Shown here: one piece after another, positions 25,912 through 53,360 of the stretch
How positions within the stretch are numbered: the stretch's first letter is position 1
How the letters are laid out: every line of letters begins with the position of its first letter
Source of the DNA: a virus
Lineage: Duplodnaviria > Caudoviricetes
Reading direction: 5' to 3' (one strand)
Length of the DNA stretch: 64,000 nt
IMG/VR virus record: IMGVR_UViG_2923084042_000004
Span: 8,768-72,767 of that record
Position numbers and translations under genes: made by a program
Notes under the pieces: generated by a model
Database searches by the model: none
What the model was told of the DNA's origin: nothing
What the model saw: the letters and a program-made list of their open reading frames with translations, nothing else

Positions 25912-26847
25912 CTATGACCGCATCGACAGTATTTTCCCCGCCAAGAACGCCTTCCGCTTTAGCATCGCCAGGTACAACCGACGCGCCAAACTTTCCTCGT
26001 GCTGCAACGTTATCTCTACCGCCTTCCCTACGTTCGGATGCTCGACTATACGTTCAATCAGCGCTAACTTTTCGCGCATCCCTTTATCGCAGCCCGGCTT
26101 GAATTCGTTCTGTATACATCCGTTTACCGCGATATAACACTTCCGTCGCGCCAGATCCACCGCAACCTTCTCGTCGTACAAACCCCACCGTTTCGCGTAC
26201 GTTTCTAGCGTATTGCCGTTTATGTAAGAATCGAATAGCTGCGGGTTGTATTTGCGCATCAAGCTCTCGTCGTTAATCTGCCGGTAATGATACAACGCTT
26301 TATCGATATAATAAGCCGTCTTAAACAGCCAATCTTCGCCGAGATACTTGCCGTCAGGGAACGCTAGATCATACGTTTCTAGCCGGCGTATAGAAAATCC
26401 GTCAGTATCTCCGCCTTGATCGCGTCACGGTCCAACGGCGTATTTGCTTTTGCGCTATAGCTTTTCGATGCATCTTCGTATTCCCAACGCATGTCTGTAA
26501 ATACAATATCGGCGTTATTTTCAAGCGCAGCTTCGTACATTGTCGCGTAAGTTTCCCGATCGACCCAAAAACGCCATGTACTCACCCTTCGCCTGCTTTA
26601 GTGCGTTATTTCGCGCCGTGGCCGGACCTTGATTTGCTTGGTAGATCGGCTTAACGCGTTCGTCGGTGGCTTCGTAGTACCTCAAAATAGTACGTGTTGA
26701 ATCGGTTGAACCGTCGTCTACGATCAAAACTTCGATATTCTTCAACGTCTGTCCGAGCACACTATCTAAACAGTCGCGCAGGTATTTCTCGCCATTGTAT
26801 ACCGGTATAATAACGCTCACTTTGACTTTCGGTCTCATTTCGTCCAC
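25912..26847 (-). pseudogene. Family 2 glycosyltransferase pseudogene in three frames
   Basis: VSVIIPVYNGEKYL..CLDSVLGQT..VDDGSTD..ARN..GEY; frameshift where D-x-D should be; later GEDWLF and LYHYRQ motifs in other frames. Confidence 0.85.
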
Positions 26848-27464: not shown

Positions 27465-27554
27465 ATGTTAACGGCTTTATCAATCGTAATTACGGCGGCG
27501 GCCCTGATCGTTGCGGTCGTGGGGTTAACCGTCGCACTCAAACGGAGGCGATAA
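27465..27554 (+). CDS. 29-aa single-TM peptide with basic tail (type I toxin/holin-like)
   Basis: Read manually: MLTALSIVITAAALIVAVVGLTVALKRRR; SD AAGGAGG. Confidence 0.7.
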   Translation: MLTALSIVITAAALIVAVVGLTVALKRRR

Positions 27555-27558
27555 CGGT

Positions 27559-27762
27559 ATGCAGCAGCTTATGATTCGCAAAATATGGTCGGATACACCG
27601 GCACTTACACCGCAGCAGGAAGCGCAGATCCTCGATCTATACGAGCGCCCCGCCGCCAATTTCGGTCGATGTGGGCGCGCTTACCAAATTGGGATCAATT
27701 CGATGTTACAATATTTCGGCTATCGGATCGAAGTCGAAACGGAGGCTATGAACGATGATTGA
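27559..27762 (+). CDS. Hypothetical protein
   Basis: 67 aa; GGAGG SD; operonic. Confidence 0.65.
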   Translation: MQQLMIRKIWSDTPALTPQQEAQILDLYERPAANFGRCGRAYQIGINSMLQYFGYRIEVETEAMNDD

Positions 27763-27871
27763 ATACGCTTGTAACGAATGTAATTACGCAAGACTTGACG
27801 TAAAAATAGAGCCTGACGCGTGCTGCCCTACGTGTGGAGCGCGCCTGCAGGTCGAGGAGGAAATCGTATGA
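27755..27871 (+). CDS. Small zinc-ribbon protein (38 aa)
   Basis: Read manually: MIEYACNECNY..CCPTCGARL, two CxxC pairs. Confidence 0.65.
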   Translation: MIEYACNECNYARLDVKIEPDACCPTCGARLQVEEEIV

Positions 27872-28305
27872 AACGTTTATTTAAATCAATCGTAATCACC
27901 GCGGCTTTATTGACGAGTACTATCGCCTTAGCACCACAAGCAGACGCAGCATGGTCGGGATGGCAGACGGAGAAGTTTGGACATAAAGCGCGCGTTTATA
28001 CGGATGCGACTACGTATACAAGCAGCGCAAAGTCGGTCGATTGGAAAGCCGAAAAGAAAGGCGCGGCCACGCTTTATTACACGGCCGGCGTATATAAAAA
28101 GCGCTCAGGTGGCGGGCTGACCGATACGGGTTTAGTGCAGCGCGGAAGCTTTAAGACCGAAACGCCGCTGAAGTCGTTTAGCGTAAAGTCGATTCGCGGT
28201 AAGACTGGCGCCGGTAGCTACGTGATCCAGGTCGATTGTTATACGGATTCGGGCAAGAGCCACTATATCGGAACTTTTGAGTCGGCGCGTTTTAACGTGA
28301 AATAA
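27868..28305 (+). CDS. Secreted basic beta-rich protein of unknown function
   Basis: True start ATG 27868 after GAGGAGG; Sec signal MKRLFKSIVITAALLTSTIALAPQADA with A-D-A cleavage site. Confidence 0.8.
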   Translation: MKRLFKSIVITAALLTSTIALAPQADAAWSGWQTEKFGHKARVYTDATTYTSSAKSVDWKAEKKGAATLYYTAGVYKKRSGGGLTDTGLVQRGSFKTETPLKSFSVKSIRGKTGAGSYVIQVDCYTDSGKSHYIGTFESARFNVK

Positions 28306-28447
28306 GCGTGTGTGAGCCGTTTTAAGCTGCGAGGTACTTAGTGTACCTGATCGGCGCTAAGGCGGCTCTTTCGCTTTGATTTCGTGGTATAATCGTTCTA
28401 TACGGAGGTTGAAGCGATGGAAACGAAAGACTACGAAAAATATTTAA

Positions 28448-28490
28448 ACGCAAAAATAAAGACGCCTTAACGGGCGTCCTTTTTCGTTTT
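28448..28490. terminator. Bidirectional intrinsic terminator
   Basis: AAAGACGCC-TTAAC-GGGCGTCCTTTTT with A/T runs on both sides. Confidence 0.8.
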
Positions 28491-28578
28491 ATGCTCCTCT
28501 AACGATACCCTCTAACGGACTAGCTCCTCGCGGCATTCCGTATAATTGCGGCCCTGCGCCCGGATTTAATTCTCCCAT
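28489..28578 (-). CDS. Orphan arbitrium-peptide concatemer MGELNPGAGPQLYGMPRGASPLEGIVRGA (no signal peptide)
   Basis: Read manually; SD GGAGGTGA 5 nt before ATG; extended -10 TGGTATAAT at 28607-28615; terminator directly after the stop; contains GMPRGA (28522-28539) and C-terminal GIVRGA (28492-28509). Confidence 0.88.
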   Translation of the reverse strand: MGELNPGAGPQLYGMPRGASPLEGIVRGA

Positions 28579-28607
28579 TCGACTCACCTCCGACCTACAT
28601 AGTAAAA

Positions 28608-29051
28608 TTATACCACGCGCGCTTTCCTTTTCGCACCTATATTCGACCATATCGCGTCCTGCTTCCGTTTATTCTCGGCAGCCTCCGGAAACATGCGAAA
28701 AAACTCGGCTTCGTCTTCGATCGGCTTTCGGAAATAATAGACGAGGTTCTTCGCGCCACCTCCGTTCTCTACCGTCTGTATAAGTTGCGCCTGGACTAGC
28801 GTTTTGACCGCGTTACGATACGTTGAGTCGCTTATAGCCAGCGCCCTAGCCGCCTGTTCTTGCGTCGGAAAGGCGTAACCGTAGTCCGCGTTATAAAACT
28901 TCAGCAGAAACGCGTATACCAACACGGCGTTACCGTTCAGCTTCGGAAAGTATTGATAATGCGTAAGAATAACGTTAGGTATGCCCGTATAGCCCGCCGC
29001 AGTATCAAACGGTAGGGCCTTCGCTTTATCGCTCATATAATCGTCCTCCAC
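28608..29051 (-). CDS. Helix-turn-helix (HTH_36-like) replication-initiator-type protein
   Basis: GYTGIPN..LVYAFLL..GYAFPTQEQAARALAISDST...VKTL...LI. Confidence 0.8.
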   Translation of the reverse strand: MEDDYMSDKAKALPFDTAAGYTGIPNVILTHYQYFPKLNGNAVLVYAFLLKFYNADYGYAFPTQEQAARALAISDSTYRNAVKTLVQAQLIQTVENGGGAKNLVYYFRKPIEDEAEFFRMFPEAAENKRKQDAIWSNIGAKRKARVV

Positions 29052-37440: not shown

Positions 37441-38424
37441 TTATTCCCCGAAATAAAAGTCCGAATCTTTAAGCGCCTCGACCGTCGCCTTCTTATAGCC
37501 GTTACCCTTCTGCGAAAAGAAGTCGTGCGATTTGGTTTTCGTACTAAGTCCGTTCATCACGATCGGATTCGGCGTTTCGTCTTCATAGTACGGATCGAAC
37601 GCGAGGTTTTGCAACGCTTTATTCGCGTTATAGCGCATGAATCGTTTAACGTCGTGTGTCAGACCGACCGCATCGTAAAGATCCTCGGCATATGCGACCT
37701 CGTTATCGTATAGCTCCGTTAGTAAATCAACCGCAAAATCGCGTAATTCTAACTGAACGCGATGAGCTTGGCGGTTATAAATTTCCTGCGCGAGCAAGCC
37801 GGTATAAACGCCGTGGATCGCTTCGTCGCGAATAATAAGCGATATGATTTCGCCGGAGTTCGTTAGCTTGCCTTGGCCCGCGAAATATAACGGATAGTAA
37901 AATCCGCTGTAGAACAAGAAGCTTTCGAGATATACCGAAGCGACCAGCGCCTTATACAGCGAAATATCATCGCCCGGCTCAATCGCGTTATACAGGTCGA
38001 CGATACGCGCCGCTTTCCGCTGCAAGTACGGATTGGTCTTAACCCATTCGAAAACTTCGTTAATTGTTTCGGTAGGTGCAAGCGTCATAAAGATATTCGA
38101 ATAGGATTTCGCATGGACGGCGTTCTCCATCATCGCCATGAAATTAAGTACGGCTTTGCGTTGGTGGCCGGTGATGTGTTGCGCGATGATAGGCATACCG
38201 GTGTTTCCCTGTTCCGTATCCAGAAGCGTTAGGCCCGCAAGATCGCGCATGTATACGAGCTGCTCGGTCGGGCTTAGTGCCTTCCACGTTAGGAGATCGC
38301 CATTTAGCGAAATCTCTTCCGGAAGCCAGAATTGCTTAACGTTCTGCGCGTAGAACATTTGCGTAAAGTCGTCTTCATGGCGTGACCAATCGGCCGCCGT
38401 ATGGATTGCGTTTGCGTTCGTCAA
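37441..38424 (-). CDS. nrdF: Class Ib ribonucleotide reductase beta subunit
   Basis: [44 protein letters not shown]. Confidence 0.97.
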
Positions 38425-51972: not shown

Positions 51973-52092
51973 TTATCCTCCGATCGCGTTGATTGCTACT
52001 TCTTCACCTGGATCTGATACCTGATTACTATACAGCAACCCTAGAGCTAACACACTCACCAATGTTAAAACAACTAATAAAGTCTTCTTCAA
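51973..52092 (-). CDS. aimP: Arbitrium pro-peptide; predicted mature peptide INAIGG
   Basis: Read manually: MKKTLLVVLTLVSVLALGLLYSNQVSDPGEEVAINAIGG; signal peptide, EVA cleavage context, SD AAAGGAG; overlaps the aimR 3' end. Confidence 0.9.
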   Translation of the reverse strand: MKKTLLVVLTLVSVLALGLLYSNQVSDPGEEVAINAIGG

Positions 52093-53266
52093 AAACAACA
52101 TCTCCTTTTTTCGATGAGGTTCCCCTCAAGTTTATTGTCAGGTTTTTGATGAAATCAGTACATTCGCCTGCCTCCATCAAATCCCTTACAATTATAGATG
52201 CGTAATACAAATTAGAATCGGACACGAAATCGCAAAACTTTTTATAAAGGCTTTTCCGATCTCCTGAAATCGCCTCAAAATATCCGGTAAGGTCAGGGTC
52301 GCCCATTTTCCCAACGCAATCTAGTGCATCTTCATAGGAGACTTTTCCTTTTCTAAACCCCTCAACCTTTTTCAAAACATCGGGTGCACTTTCTTCAACT
52401 TTCTTTGATAAGAGGATTCTAGCAAAGTTATAATTATAAACCGCATACCCTTCTAATCGCTCGTTTTTTAATTCTTTAGCTACTTCGACACTGTCTTTTA
52501 AGTATCTCAAACAAATTGATTCATCTGTTTGCAGGTAAGTCATGCCAATGATGTACAAAGCGTCTGAATTCACTCTCTTGTTAATATTAGCATTGAGGAG
52601 AATATTTGAGTAGCGTCTAGCTTCTTCTAAGTTGTTTGAAAAAAGGTGTGCATATGCTAAAATCTCAGATAGCCTATACAAATAACACTCTTTTAAAAAC
52701 AGATGAGATTTATCATTCAATCCATTTATTTGAACTTCGAGTTCTGAAGCTTTGTTTATTACATATGAGAACTGTCTTTTATGAAGTAAAGTGATGCAAC
52801 CGTAGATGTCTACAAGAATTTTAAGGATTGGGTCGTTGAGGTTTGATAGTTTGTCTAGTTCTTCGTTCATTGAATCGAACTTAACTTTTCCGTGCATGTA
52901 CTTACTGATAAAAGAATACACCTTGACGTACTTCTCGATAATATTCCGCTTTTCGCATTTATAAGTCTCGATATGGTTATCCAGAAGCTCGATATCTCTA
53001 GTTATAGCAGCATACTCAAAAGTCTTTCTTATACAATCGGAGCTCTCGGTTAATTGAGGGCATACGTCTCTCATAAAGGATCTATAATTTTCAGGATCTG
53101 CTAATTGCGAAAGGACAAGAAGGCTTCTTAATGTCAGTTTCCGCTTTCCAGCTCTAAGGTTTCCTACCTGTTTTGTAGACAGTTTTAAATATGACGCGAT
53201 TAATGAGTCATTTAAATCATCTCTGTCCGAAATACGATCAAATAGAAAGTTTCTAACTTTGTCCAT
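52028..53266 (-). CDS. aimR: Arbitrium receptor (HTH plus TPR, RRNPP family)
   Basis: N-terminal HTH; FEYA motif; Y..RL.E.L....L..N..EEAR.Y; A.YIIGMTYL..D...L..L; adjacent pro-peptide; start MDKVR after GGGGTG. Confidence 0.9.
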   Translation of the reverse strand: MDKVRNFLFDRISDRDDLNDSLIASYLKLSTKQVGNLRAGKRKLTLRSLLVLSQLADPENYRSFMRDVCPQLTESSDCIRKTFEYAAITRDIELLDNHIETYKCEKRNIIEKYVKVYSFISKYMHGKVKFDSMNEELDKLSNLNDPILKILVDIYGCITLLHKRQFSYVINKASELEVQINGLNDKSHLFLKECYLYRLSEILAYAHLFSNNLEEARRYSNILLNANINKRVNSDALYIIGMTYLQTDESICLRYLKDSVEVAKELKNERLEGYAVYNYNFARILLSKKVEESAPDVLKKVEGFRKGKVSYEDALDCVGKMGDPDLTGYFEAISGDRKSLYKKFCDFVSDSNLYYASIIVRDLMEAGECTDFIKNLTINLRGTSSKKGDVVFEEDFISCFNIGECVSSRVAV

Positions 53267-53336
53267 GTTGTTCACCCCAGTTTTAAGTAAATGAATGACA
53301 TTTCCACCACGTTTAAGTATAATTGAATTATAGCTC

Positions 53337-53360
53337 ATATGTTTACGTATGTAAACATAT
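53337..53360. promoter_or_regulatory. Palindromic operator between divergent aimR and XRE genes
   Basis: ATATGTTTAC-GTAT-GTAAACATAT; degenerate copy TTGTTCAGGTATGTAAACAA at 51915-51934. Confidence 0.7.

What the first reader, a model, noticed from the sequence alone, without database searches (positions are those of the whole stretch)
28448..28615. Orphan mini-gene encoding other phages' arbitrium signals in tandem (GMPRGA + GIVRGA): candidate signal-spoofing system
Seen: a self-contained minus-strand unit missed by the ORF track. It has an extended -10 promoter (TGGTATAAT, 28607-28615), SD GGAGGTGA, the 29-aa ORF MG-ELNPGA-GPQLY-GMPRGA-SPLE-GIVRGA and an immediate terminator. Established: GMPRGA is the mature AimP of SPbeta and GIVRGA that of the SPbeta-like phage Katmira; peptide-bound AimR is inactivated, which favours lysogeny and dampens prophage induction. 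Two exact known hexapeptides in 29 residues is not plausible by chance (each is 1 of 20^6 possible hexamers). This phage's own AimP ends in a different peptide (INAIGG) and lies 23 kb away; the mini-gene has no signal peptide and no adjacent aimR. Inference: the lysogen constitutively makes a cytoplasmic multi-signal decoy that shuts off AimR of incoming or co-resident SPbeta-like phages, forcing them into lysogeny or blocking their induction. Alternatively it is released at lysis and matured by extracellular proteases. ELNPGA may be a third cassette aimed at another AimR clade.
Basis: partly seen in the sequence, partly recalled or inferred. Interest (0 to 1): 0.96.

Follow-up and report, generated by a model that had tools for sequence, protein, structure and literature searches.

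The report
Phage gene forging rival phages' signals
A Bacillus prophage carries a tiny gene, with no export signal and no receptor beside it, whose 29-residue product strings together the exact six-residue "go dormant" signals of three other phage lineages but not its own, so it probably serves to manipulate competing phages.

Summary

- **Cassettes.** The product is M-G-ELNPGA-GPQLY-GMPRGA-SPLE-GIVRGA. All three hexapeptides are exact C-termini of real, signal-peptide-bearing AimP propeptides of other phages: SPbeta type, Goe11/Katmira type, and a ~36-kb provirus type that has its own AimR.
- **Own signal.** The phage's own AimR/AimP (INAIGG) lies 23 kb away.
- **Family.** A search with the conserved leader found 16 more copies, giving 14 distinct peptides of 17-39 aa. 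These are modular strings of GMPRGA, GIVRGA, SAIRGA, SASRGA, SPSRGA, SIIRGA and others.
- **Not a remnant.** Flanks are not shared with real aimP genes.
- **Translated.** Codon changes are mostly synonymous: 27 against 17, where 25% synonymous is expected, p=3e-7.
- **Non-self.** 0 of 13 carriers encode their own signal in the mini-gene.
- **Accessory.** Close relatives have clean empty sites.

Best reading: a leaderless, receptor-less gene that supplies rivals' AimR ligands and pushes those rivals towards lysogeny or dormancy. How the peptide is delivered and cut is unknown. Solved AimR structures hold both free ends of the peptide, so cutting is needed. Timing of expression is also unknown.

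I found nothing like it in print. Earlier notes of this scan describe the same kind of gene on other DNA.

The parts
28489..28578 (-). Mini-ORF of 29 codons plus TAA, reading M-G-ELNPGA-GPQLY-GMPRGA-SPLE-GIVRGA
   Evidence: 16 further copies with the same leader; coding constraint
28555..28572 (-). Cassette 1, ELNPGA: exact C-terminus of a signal-peptide AimP next to an AimR in ~36-kb proviruses
28522..28539 (-). Cassette 2, GMPRGA: the SPbeta-type arbitrium signal
28492..28509 (-). Cassette 3, GIVRGA: the Goe11/Katmira-type arbitrium signal. It ends at the stop codon, which gives a free C-terminus
28584..28591 (-). Shine-Dalgarno GGAGGTGA; GGAGG lies 8 nt before the ATG
   Evidence: conserved in all 17 copies
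28607..28615 (-). TGGTATAAT, a -10-like box that overlaps the stop codon of the upstream gene. Promoter status is uncertain
   Evidence: not called by the scan; GGTATAAT is in 16 of 16 copies with upstream sequence, and the TG in 4 of 16
28448..28481 (-). Intrinsic terminator (stem 28481-28458 plus T run). It is bidirectional and is also present at the empty sites of relatives
28608..29051 (-). Upstream gene (context): 147-aa HTH / DnaD-N-like DNA-binding protein. Its stop lies inside the -10-like box
52028..53338 (-). The phage's own AimR (context for the non-self argument)
   Evidence: PF22871, E=1.2e-24
51973..52101 (-). The phage's own AimP: 42 aa, with a signal peptide, ending ...EVA|INAIGG

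Best explanation
The mini-gene is a translated accessory gene of a family of ~65-72-kb temperate Bacillus phages that have their own arbitrium system. Its product is a leaderless poly-signal: a chain of exact mature arbitrium peptides belonging to other phages. Most come from SPbeta-like clade-2 phages, and one comes from a smaller provirus lineage.

Proposed mechanism:
1. The chain is cut to hexapeptides. Removal of the initiator Met before Gly and the stop codon already set the outermost ends.
2. The hexapeptides occupy the AimR receptors of rival phages.
3. Those rivals stop expressing aimX, so they lysogenise or stay dormant while the carrier phage replicates.

What is shown: the gene, its modular variants, the coding constraint, the identity of the cassettes to real signals, and the absence of the carrier's own signal.

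What is inferred: translation in vivo, cutting, the delivery route, and the effect on rivals. Delivery could be inside a co-infected or polylysogenic cell, or by release at lysis followed by extracellular proteases and Opp import.
For: 1. Exact real signals.
- The window's three cassettes equal real AimP termini.
- Across the 14 variants, 31 of 34 RGA-type cassette instances are documented signals (my hand count).
- 27 of those are verified here against annotated or AimR-adjacent AimPs.
- The 4 SIIRGA instances rest on passages of bioRxiv 10.1101/2025.10.13.681967.

2. A family with variable cassettes.
- 15 of 20 leader matches in IMG/VR are mini-genes, and 1 metagenome contig adds another.
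- That makes 17 copies and 14 distinct peptides.
- The protein collection adds 2 more variants.

3. Coding constraint.
- At least 27 synonymous against 17 non-synonymous changes over 39 columns.
- The expected synonymous share is 0.248; binomial p=3e-7.
- Variable sites by codon position are 11/11/24.
- Non-synonymous changes cluster at the specificity positions.

4. Not an aimP remnant.
- Real AimPs have a signal peptide and an invariant VA| before the hexapeptide.
- The mini-gene has M|, Y| or E| there.
- blastn of the locus against 50,697 phage records matches only the terminator.

5. Non-self.
- 0 of 13 carriers with an identified own AimP (INAIGG, ANQLGG, DIRVGA, ELRPGG, EIKVGG) have it in the mini-gene.
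- 0 of 2 second arbitrium modules in carrier records (SAIRGA, GFGRGA) are represented either.

6. Accessory module.
- Clean empty sites in phages 268TH007 and phi18-2 and in G016, whose AimR is 99% identical to the window's.
- 0 of 12 further records of the same AimR clade carry the mini-gene.

7. Registration of the ends.
- All 14 variants start with MG, and 7 of them start with M-GMPRGA.
- In every variant the last cassette ends at the stop codon.

8. The payoff is plausible.
- Added cognate or cross-reacting peptide blocks induction.
- In a double lysogen, one phage's AimP cut the other's particle yield about tenfold (PMC13220667, passages).
- Signal emitters gain fitness (abstract of bioRxiv 10.1101/2025.10.13.681967).
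Against: - No direct evidence of transcription, translation or peptide release. Contigs of an RNA library cover part of the gene, but DNA carry-over cannot be excluded.
- AimR grips both free termini of the hexapeptide (PMC6458997), so the uncut chain should bind poorly. No protease is known for the E|S, Y|G and GA|S junctions.
- One natural variant has SPLQ instead of SPLE, which weakens the idea of a Glu-specific cut.
- There is no export signal, so the route to other cells is unexplained.
- Some cassettes have no known real counterpart: SIVRGA, GPVRGA, GPVRGV, EIKPGA, EIRPGA, EIKLGA and ELKPGG. For EIKPGA, 0 of 7 IMG/VR hits are AimP-like.
- In the two records that hold a second arbitrium module, that module's signal is not among the cassettes. 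There is therefore no sign that the gene is tuned to a co-resident rival.
- The substitution count ignores phylogeny and recombination.
Confidence: 0.6

Rival explanations
1. Prophage-encoded protection of the lysogen. The gene is expressed in the lysogen, and the peptides act in the cytoplasm on the AimR of incoming SPbeta-like phages. Those phages then lysogenise instead of killing the cell. This is a sub-variant of the main reading with a different beneficiary and timing, and it is the first reader's version.
For: - No export signal.
- A perfect TATAAT is conserved in 16 of 16 copies with upstream sequence.
- Met removal would expose the exact N-terminus of GMPRGA in 7 of 14 variants.
- The locus borders convergent moron-like genes.
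Against: - No -35, and the TG is present in only 4 of 16 copies. The TATAAT is largely made by the upstream stop codon.
- The gene ends a block of methylase, sigma-factor and DnaD-like genes, which look like lytic-programme genes.
- Both free ends are needed for native AimR binding.
Confidence: 0.2
2. The peptides act on the host, not on rival phages. For example, they might compete at Opp or at Rap-type receptors, or trigger the host response reported for SAIRGA.
For: The abstract of bioRxiv 10.64898/2026.08.23.746533 (search listing) reports that SAIRGA alters Bacillus subtilis colony development and sporulation.
Against: - It does not explain why the cassettes are an assortment of exact signals of different AimR specificities.
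- It does not explain why the carrier's own signal is never included.
Confidence: 0.08
3. A non-functional by-product: a recombination scar made of aimP 3' ends, a chance ORF, or a cis-acting RNA or leader element in front of the terminator.
For: - It is very short and has no profile match.
- Copies differ by in-frame deletions between repeated units.
- One database ORF looks frame-disrupted (P0008).
Against: - Flanks differ from real aimP genes.
- There is an excess of synonymous changes and of third-position variation.
- The SD and ATG are conserved in 17 of 17 copies.
- All indels are in frame.
- Shuffles give 0.055 hits against 4 observed.
- No Rfam family reaches threshold; the best match is 18 bits against a gathering score of 50.
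- No gene follows in the same direction.
Confidence: 0.05
4. Extra signals for the carrier's own receptor: a second, leaderless AimP for self-communication.
For: The first unit of 7 of 14 variants (ELNPGA, ELKPGG, EIKPGA and others) resembles signals of the carriers' own AimR clade, such as ELRPGG, EIKVGG and DIRPGG.
Against: - 0 of 13 carriers have their own hexapeptide in the mini-gene.
- Most cassettes are clade-2 RGA signals.
- The carriers' AimRs are only distantly related to clade-2 AimR: PF22871 E of 1e-20 to 1e-28, against 1e-72 to 1e-96 for clade-2 copies.
Confidence: 0.04

Closest known systems
AimP, the arbitrium pro-peptide (SPbeta yopL type, phi3T_90, Goe11 aimP; NCBIfam NF033802)
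   Same: It encodes the same mature hexapeptides that bind AimR (GMPRGA, GIVRGA, SAIRGA, SASRGA, SPSRGA). The last unit lies at the C-terminus.
   Different: - No Sec signal peptide and no VA| cleavage context.
- Not next to an aimR; the nearest is 23 kb away.
- Several different signals in one chain.
- None of them is the phage's own signal.
- No NF033802 hit, while a real AimP scores 70 bits.
- No DNA similarity to aimP genes.
Tandemly duplicated Phr propeptides of phage Rap-Phr systems (phi3T, phi105; PMC11343458, abstract and passages)
   Same: One precursor holds several pheromone units that must be released by proteolysis.
   Different: The Phr precursors are secreted, sit beside their cognate Rap receptor, and carry identical or near-identical units for that one receptor. 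Here the units belong to different, foreign receptors, and there is no signal peptide.
Arbitrium cross-talk through canonical AimP (PMC13220667; bioRxiv 10.1101/2025.10.13.681967)
   Same: One phage's peptide drives another phage into lysogeny or blocks its induction, to the emitter's advantage.
   Different: Cross-talk is a side effect of a phage's own secreted signal resembling another phage's. Here a separate gene encodes the rivals' exact signals and not the phage's own.
Leaderless short RRNPP pheromone genes of streptococci (ComS/XIP, SHP).
   Same: Very short precursors without a classical Sec signal peptide, with the active peptide at the C-terminus.
   Different: Those are hydrophobic, are exported by a dedicated transporter, pair with an adjacent cognate receptor, and hold one signal.
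Prophage LuxI/LuxR systems that push co-resident prophages to lysogeny (PMC13345283; abstract in the search listing only)
   Same: A signal of one prophage activates the lysogeny programme of a rival.
   Different: That is a different chemistry (acyl-homoserine lactones). The signal there is the phage's own, and it has its own receptor.

Membership tests
AimP arbitrium pro-peptide family | N-terminal Sec-type signal peptide (MKK plus a hydrophobic stretch) | tested here: not met
   8 of 8 real AimPs aligned have one. The 17-39-aa mini-gene products have no hydrophobic stretch.
AimP arbitrium pro-peptide family | Encoded directly downstream of its cognate aimR | tested here: not met
   The upstream gene is an HTH/DnaD-N-like protein. 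The only AimR in the record is 23 kb away.
AimP arbitrium pro-peptide family | One mature peptide at the C-terminus, preceded by an xA| maturation site | tested here: not met
   VA| is invariant, and TA|/VA| occur. The mini-gene has M|, Y| or E| before its cassettes and holds 2-4 units.
AimP arbitrium pro-peptide family | Match to the curated profile NF033802 | tested here: not met
   No hit at E<=10 for the window product (28 of its 29 residues were sent) or for the 39-aa variant. An SPbeta-type AimP scores 70.1 bits against a cut-off of 35. The window's own divergent AimP also fails, so this negative has limited weight.
AimP arbitrium pro-peptide family | The mature peptide is the ligand of an AimR | tested here: met
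   This is met by sequence identity only. GMPRGA, GIVRGA and ELNPGA equal real AimP termini. Binding of GMPRGA and GIVRGA to their AimRs is published.
AimP arbitrium pro-peptide family | The signal is cognate to the phage's own receptor | tested here: not met
   0 of 13 carriers hold their own AimP hexapeptide in the mini-gene.
Tandemly duplicated RRNPP propeptides (Phr3T / Phr105 type) | Several pheromone units in one precursor | tested here: met
   2-4 units per chain in 14 variants.
Tandemly duplicated RRNPP propeptides (Phr3T / Phr105 type) | Secreted precursor beside its receptor, with units serving that one receptor | tested here: not met
   There is no signal peptide and no adjacent receptor, and the units belong to different AimR specificities.
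Functional forged-signal gene (proposed here) | The product is made, cut to hexapeptides, and inhibits foreign AimR | not testable with these tools
The RNA data are contigs only.

The most novel reading that the evidence does not exclude
Temperate Bacillus phages carry dedicated signal-forging genes. These are compact, receptor-less, leaderless cassette arrays that broadcast the exact 'lysogenise / stay dormant' peptides of several rival phage lineages at once. The cassettes are swapped, deleted and mutated as the rivals' signals diversify. Arbitrium diversity would then be driven partly by an arms race against deliberate forgery, not only by accidental cross-talk. Phage communication would have a dedicated offensive gene class.
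Probability: 0.5. Interest if true: 0.95.

Novelty: new variant of a known kind. Interest (0 to 1): 0.9.

Why it matters
Arbitrium is the model for communication between viruses. Work from 2025-26 shows that non-cognate peptides can steer another phage's lysis-lysogeny choice and that the emitter benefits.

A natural gene whose only content is rivals' exact signals would show that phages evolved tools to exploit this. Its features are several signals per chain, variable cassettes, never the phage's own signal, no receptor and no export signal.

If the reading is right, it would:
- explain part of the rapid diversification of AimR-AimP pairs;
- give a directly testable case of signal forgery between viruses;
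- provide a compact natural part for holding SPbeta-like prophages dormant in Bacillus subtilis;
- show that 17-39-codon genes, which gene callers mostly miss, can carry decisive functions.

Tried and rejected
- **tblastn of the product against GenBank phages:** no match. The query is too short, so this is uninformative.

- **Degenerate two-hexapeptide pattern in genome contigs:** 0 hits.

- **Leader pattern in genome contigs:** 106 hits, of which 0 are mini-genes (80 checked, 26). These are chance matches in unrelated taxa. That collection holds one genome per species.

- **First metagenome pattern:** I gave it the wrong spacer length and it found nothing. The corrected pattern found 1 contig.

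- **A real AimP ending in EIKPGA:** 0 of 7 hits are AimP-like. Only TAA stops were covered.

- **A real GIVRGA aimP in IMG/VR with a TAA stop:** none apart from the mini-genes. The real gene was taken from the Goe11 record instead.

- **RNA evidence:**
  - All runs are kept as contigs.
  - X3, a true RNA library, has a 337-nt contig covering 28439-28536 with no differences.
  - X1, which is probably DNA, has a contig covering 28390-28613.
  - Contigs show neither strand nor level, and DNA may be present, so there is no verdict on expression.

- **Complex prediction (AimR plus the uncut 39-aa variant):** No verdict.

- **Glu-specific maturation idea:** E precedes most internal cassettes, but one variant has Q. 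I have no tool evidence for any protease. Any protease names I could offer would be recalled, so I give none as evidence.

- **Rfam:** only a sub-threshold terminator-like match.

- **One-mismatch scan of the record:** one extra hit, at 37469-37489, in a 7-codon frame without a start codon. I judge it to be chance.

- **Literature:**
  - Searches (too loose to be useful; swamped by one bad term) found no paper that prints these junction strings or describes such a gene.
  - One search listed 40 of 140 papers that hold 'arbitrium' from 2022 on. I read titles and abstract starts only.
  - Subscription journals and supplementary files were not searchable and may hold relevant lists of AimP peptides.
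Full report
**1. Observation**

- TGGTATAAT at 28615-28607;
- GGAGGTGA at 28591-28584;
- ATG at 28578-28576;
- a 29-codon ORF, M-G-ELNPGA-GPQLY-GMPRGA-SPLE-GIVRGA;
- TAA at 28491-28489;
- a stem-loop with a T run at 28481-28458.

The exact ORF range is 28489-28578. Some of my early calls began at 28575 and so lacked the Met.

GMPRGA is the SPbeta signal and GIVRGA the Goe11/Katmira signal. This rests on passages of PMC13220667 and of PMC9232636. It also rests on translated aimP genes of Goe11, SPbetaL4 and an SPbeta-type provirus.

The phage's own arbitrium pair is present. AimR lies at 52028-53338 (PF22871, E=1.2e-24). A 42-aa AimP with a signal peptide, ending ...EVA|INAIGG, lies at 51973-52101.

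**2. It is a gene family, not a one-off**

Searching IMG/VR for the pair of hexapeptides gave two more contigs. One holds a shorter form, M-GMPRGA-SPLE-GIVRGA.

Searching for the conserved leader gave 20 stretches, of which 15 are mini-genes. A corrected metagenome scan added one more. With the window that makes 17 copies and 14 distinct peptides of 17-39 residues.

The products are modular:
- an optional first unit, G-E(I/L)x(P/L)G(A/G);
- an optional GMPRGA;
- then one to two units chosen from GIVRGA, SIVRGA, SAIRGA, SIIRGA, SASRGA, SPSRGA and GPVRGA;
- the units are joined by S/N-P-L-E or G-P-A-E spacers, or abut directly.

The large protein collection adds two further variants. None of them carries a functional name from any source.

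Species-representative genomes gave only chance leader matches: 0 of 106. GenBank phage records match only the terminator.

**3. The cassettes are real signals of other phages**

The following all end in the corresponding hexapeptide after a signal peptide and an invariant VA:
- the annotated aimP of Goe11 and of phi3T;
- the AimP-family peptide of BUCT082;
- the aimR-adjacent ORFs of SPbetaL3, SPbetaL4 and SPbetaL5;
- two IMG/VR proviruses.

This verifies GIVRGA, SAIRGA, SASRGA, SPSRGA, GMPRGA and GFGRGA. SIIRGA is a clade-2 signal according to bioRxiv 10.1101/2025.10.13.681967 (passages).

ELNPGA, the window's first unit, is the exact terminus of a 52-aa propeptide that has a signal peptide and reads ...FKVA|ELNPGA. 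This propeptide occurs in three contigs. In L247 it overlaps the end of a 412-aa AimR (PF22871, E=3.1e-19).

So all three cassettes of the window are real signals of three different lineages. By my hand count, 31 of 34 RGA-type cassette instances in the 14 variants are documented signals. Without SIIRGA the count is 27 of 34.

The following cassettes have no counterpart that I could find:
- SIVRGA, GPVRGA and GPVRGV;
- the first units ELKPGG, EIRPGA, EIKLGA and EIKPGA, which lie one or two residues from real signals of the carriers' own clade (ELRPGG, DIRPGG, EIKVGG);
- for EIKPGA specifically, 0 of 7 pattern hits were AimP-like.

**4. Chance and remnant explanations fail**

- A catalogue of 16 real termini hits the six frames of the 72.8-kb record four times. 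Three hits lie in one frame within 81 bases and one in the own AimP. In 200 shuffles the mean was 0.055 and the maximum 1. ELNPGA entered the catalogue post hoc.
- The residues before each cassette (M, Y, E) differ from the VA of real propeptides.
- The coding DNA has no blastn match to any aimP.
- Across the 14 variants there are at least 27 synonymous and 17 non-synonymous changes in 39 aligned codons. About a quarter synonymous is expected (binomial p=3e-7), and variable sites fall 11/11/24 by codon position.
- The scaffold (MG, P-L-E, R-G-A) is kept through synonymous changes, while the replacements sit at the specificity positions.
- This count ignores phylogeny and recombination and depends on the alignment.
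- All length differences are in frame.

**5. Context**

All 13 near-complete carrier records have one AimR of a divergent clade, with own signals INAIGG, ANQLGG, DIRVGA, ELRPGG or EIKVGG. None of the 13 has its own signal in its mini-gene.

Two records hold a second, clade-2 module:
- G008 has an AimP ending GFGRGA.
- G002 has a broken aimR with an intact SAIRGA AimP, a few kb from a mini-gene identical to the window's.

Neither of those signals is among that record's cassettes.

The mini-gene is accessory:
- Phages 268TH007 and phi18-2 go from the stop codon of the upstream gene straight to the same terminator. So does provirus G016, whose AimR is 99% identical to the window's.
- 0 of 12 further records of the AimR clade carry it.
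- It occurs behind two different upstream genes and in front of at least three different downstream sequences.

In the window it ends a minus-strand block with a methylase, a sigma factor and a DnaD-N-like HTH protein. It meets convergent small genes at a bidirectional terminator.

The -10-like box overlaps the upstream stop codon, lacks a -35 and has its TG in only 4 of 16 copies. An own promoter is therefore unproven.

**6. Mechanism**

Shown:
- a conserved, constrained ORF whose content is foreign AimR ligands;
- outer ends that are pre-registered, with Met before Gly at the N-terminus and the stop codon after the last cassette.

Established elsewhere:
- Mature peptide bound to AimR shuts off aimX and favours lysogeny.
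- Added peptide blocks induction.
- In a double lysogen a cross-reacting AimP lowered the other phage's yield about tenfold (PMC13220667).
- Emitters gain fitness (abstract).

Inferred:
- the chain is translated and cut;
- the hexapeptides reach rivals' AimR, either in the same cell (a polylysogen or a co-infection) or in neighbours after release at lysis, extracellular proteolysis and Opp import.

The SPbeta AimR structure holds the peptide's amine (Q299, E300, M296) and its carboxylate (R228) (PMC6458997, section 11). Uncut internal cassettes should therefore bind poorly, and the cutting step is the weakest link. The RNA data are inconclusive.

**7. Comparison with what is known, and novelty**

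The gene works like an AimP, as a source of AimR ligand, but it fails the defining features of the family. It has no signal peptide, no adjacent or cognate receptor, no VA| site and no NF033802 match.

It resembles tandemly duplicated Phr propeptides only in holding several units (PMC11343458).

I found no description in the searchable library:
- The junction strings occur in 5 unrelated papers.
- SIVRGA and GPVRGA did not occur in any of the papers listed by the search.
- The recent arbitrium titles and the two cross-talk papers do not mention such a gene.

Subscription journals and supplements were out of reach.

Earlier AI notes of this scan report the same kind of gene on other genomes, and reciprocal leaderless mini-genes in SPbeta-like prophages. 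I treat these as leads. The former agrees with the variants that I found independently.

**8. Verdict**

It is a real gene family. Its most likely role is forging rival phages' arbitrium signals (confidence about 0.6). The delivery route, the processing and the timing remain open.

Noticed in passing
L220 and L221 (IMG/VR loci; AimP ORFs listed): Secreted AimPs of the carriers' AimR clade that hold the same hexapeptide (SDKVGG) twice in one signal-peptide-bearing propeptide. This is a natural tandem duplication inside a canonical AimP.
   Followed up: no
L078 1675-2834 (record G002, a few kb from a mini-gene identical to the window's): A phi3T-type arbitrium remnant. The aimR is broken by two stop codons, but an intact AimP ending ...VTVA|SAIRGA and a 51-aa AimX-like ORF follow it.
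   Followed up: partly
L079 1462-2595 (record G008, 95.5 kb): A second, clade-2 arbitrium pair (AimP ending GFGRGA) in the same provirus record as a carrier phage with its own DIRVGA system. This is either two adjacent prophages or one phage with two systems.
   Followed up: no
window 28439-28536, run X3: A 337-nt contig from an RNA library matches the terminator and the 3' half of the mini-gene exactly. It then continues upstream of a short-type start (ATG GGG) with letters unlike any leader seen in the 17 copies. This is either a further genomic context or an assembly or adapter artefact.
   Followed up: no
proteins P0004, P0006 and P0008: One natural variant has the spacer SPLQ instead of SPLE before SIVRGA. 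P0008 shares the upstream out-of-frame part but diverges where the mini-gene should start, so it may be a frame-disrupted copy.
   Followed up: no
window 27465-28305 (+): A convergent cluster of small genes meets the mini-gene at the shared terminator. It comprises a 29-aa hydrophobic peptide, a 67-aa ORF, a 38-aa four-Cys ORF, and a 161-aa protein with a signal-peptide-like N-terminus (phrog_8287, function unknown). This part is shared at about 90-93% identity with phages 268TH007 and phi18-2.
   Followed up: partly
window 26521-26847 (-): A 108-aa ORF matching only the N-terminal ~90 residues of GtrB-like glycosyltransferases of about 300-830 residues. It is probably a truncated moron gene.
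   Followed up: no
window 37469-37489 (-): A stop-adjacent GDGRGA, one residue from the real signal GFGRGA. It lies in a 7-codon stop-to-stop frame without a start codon, and I judge it to be chance.
   Followed up: partly
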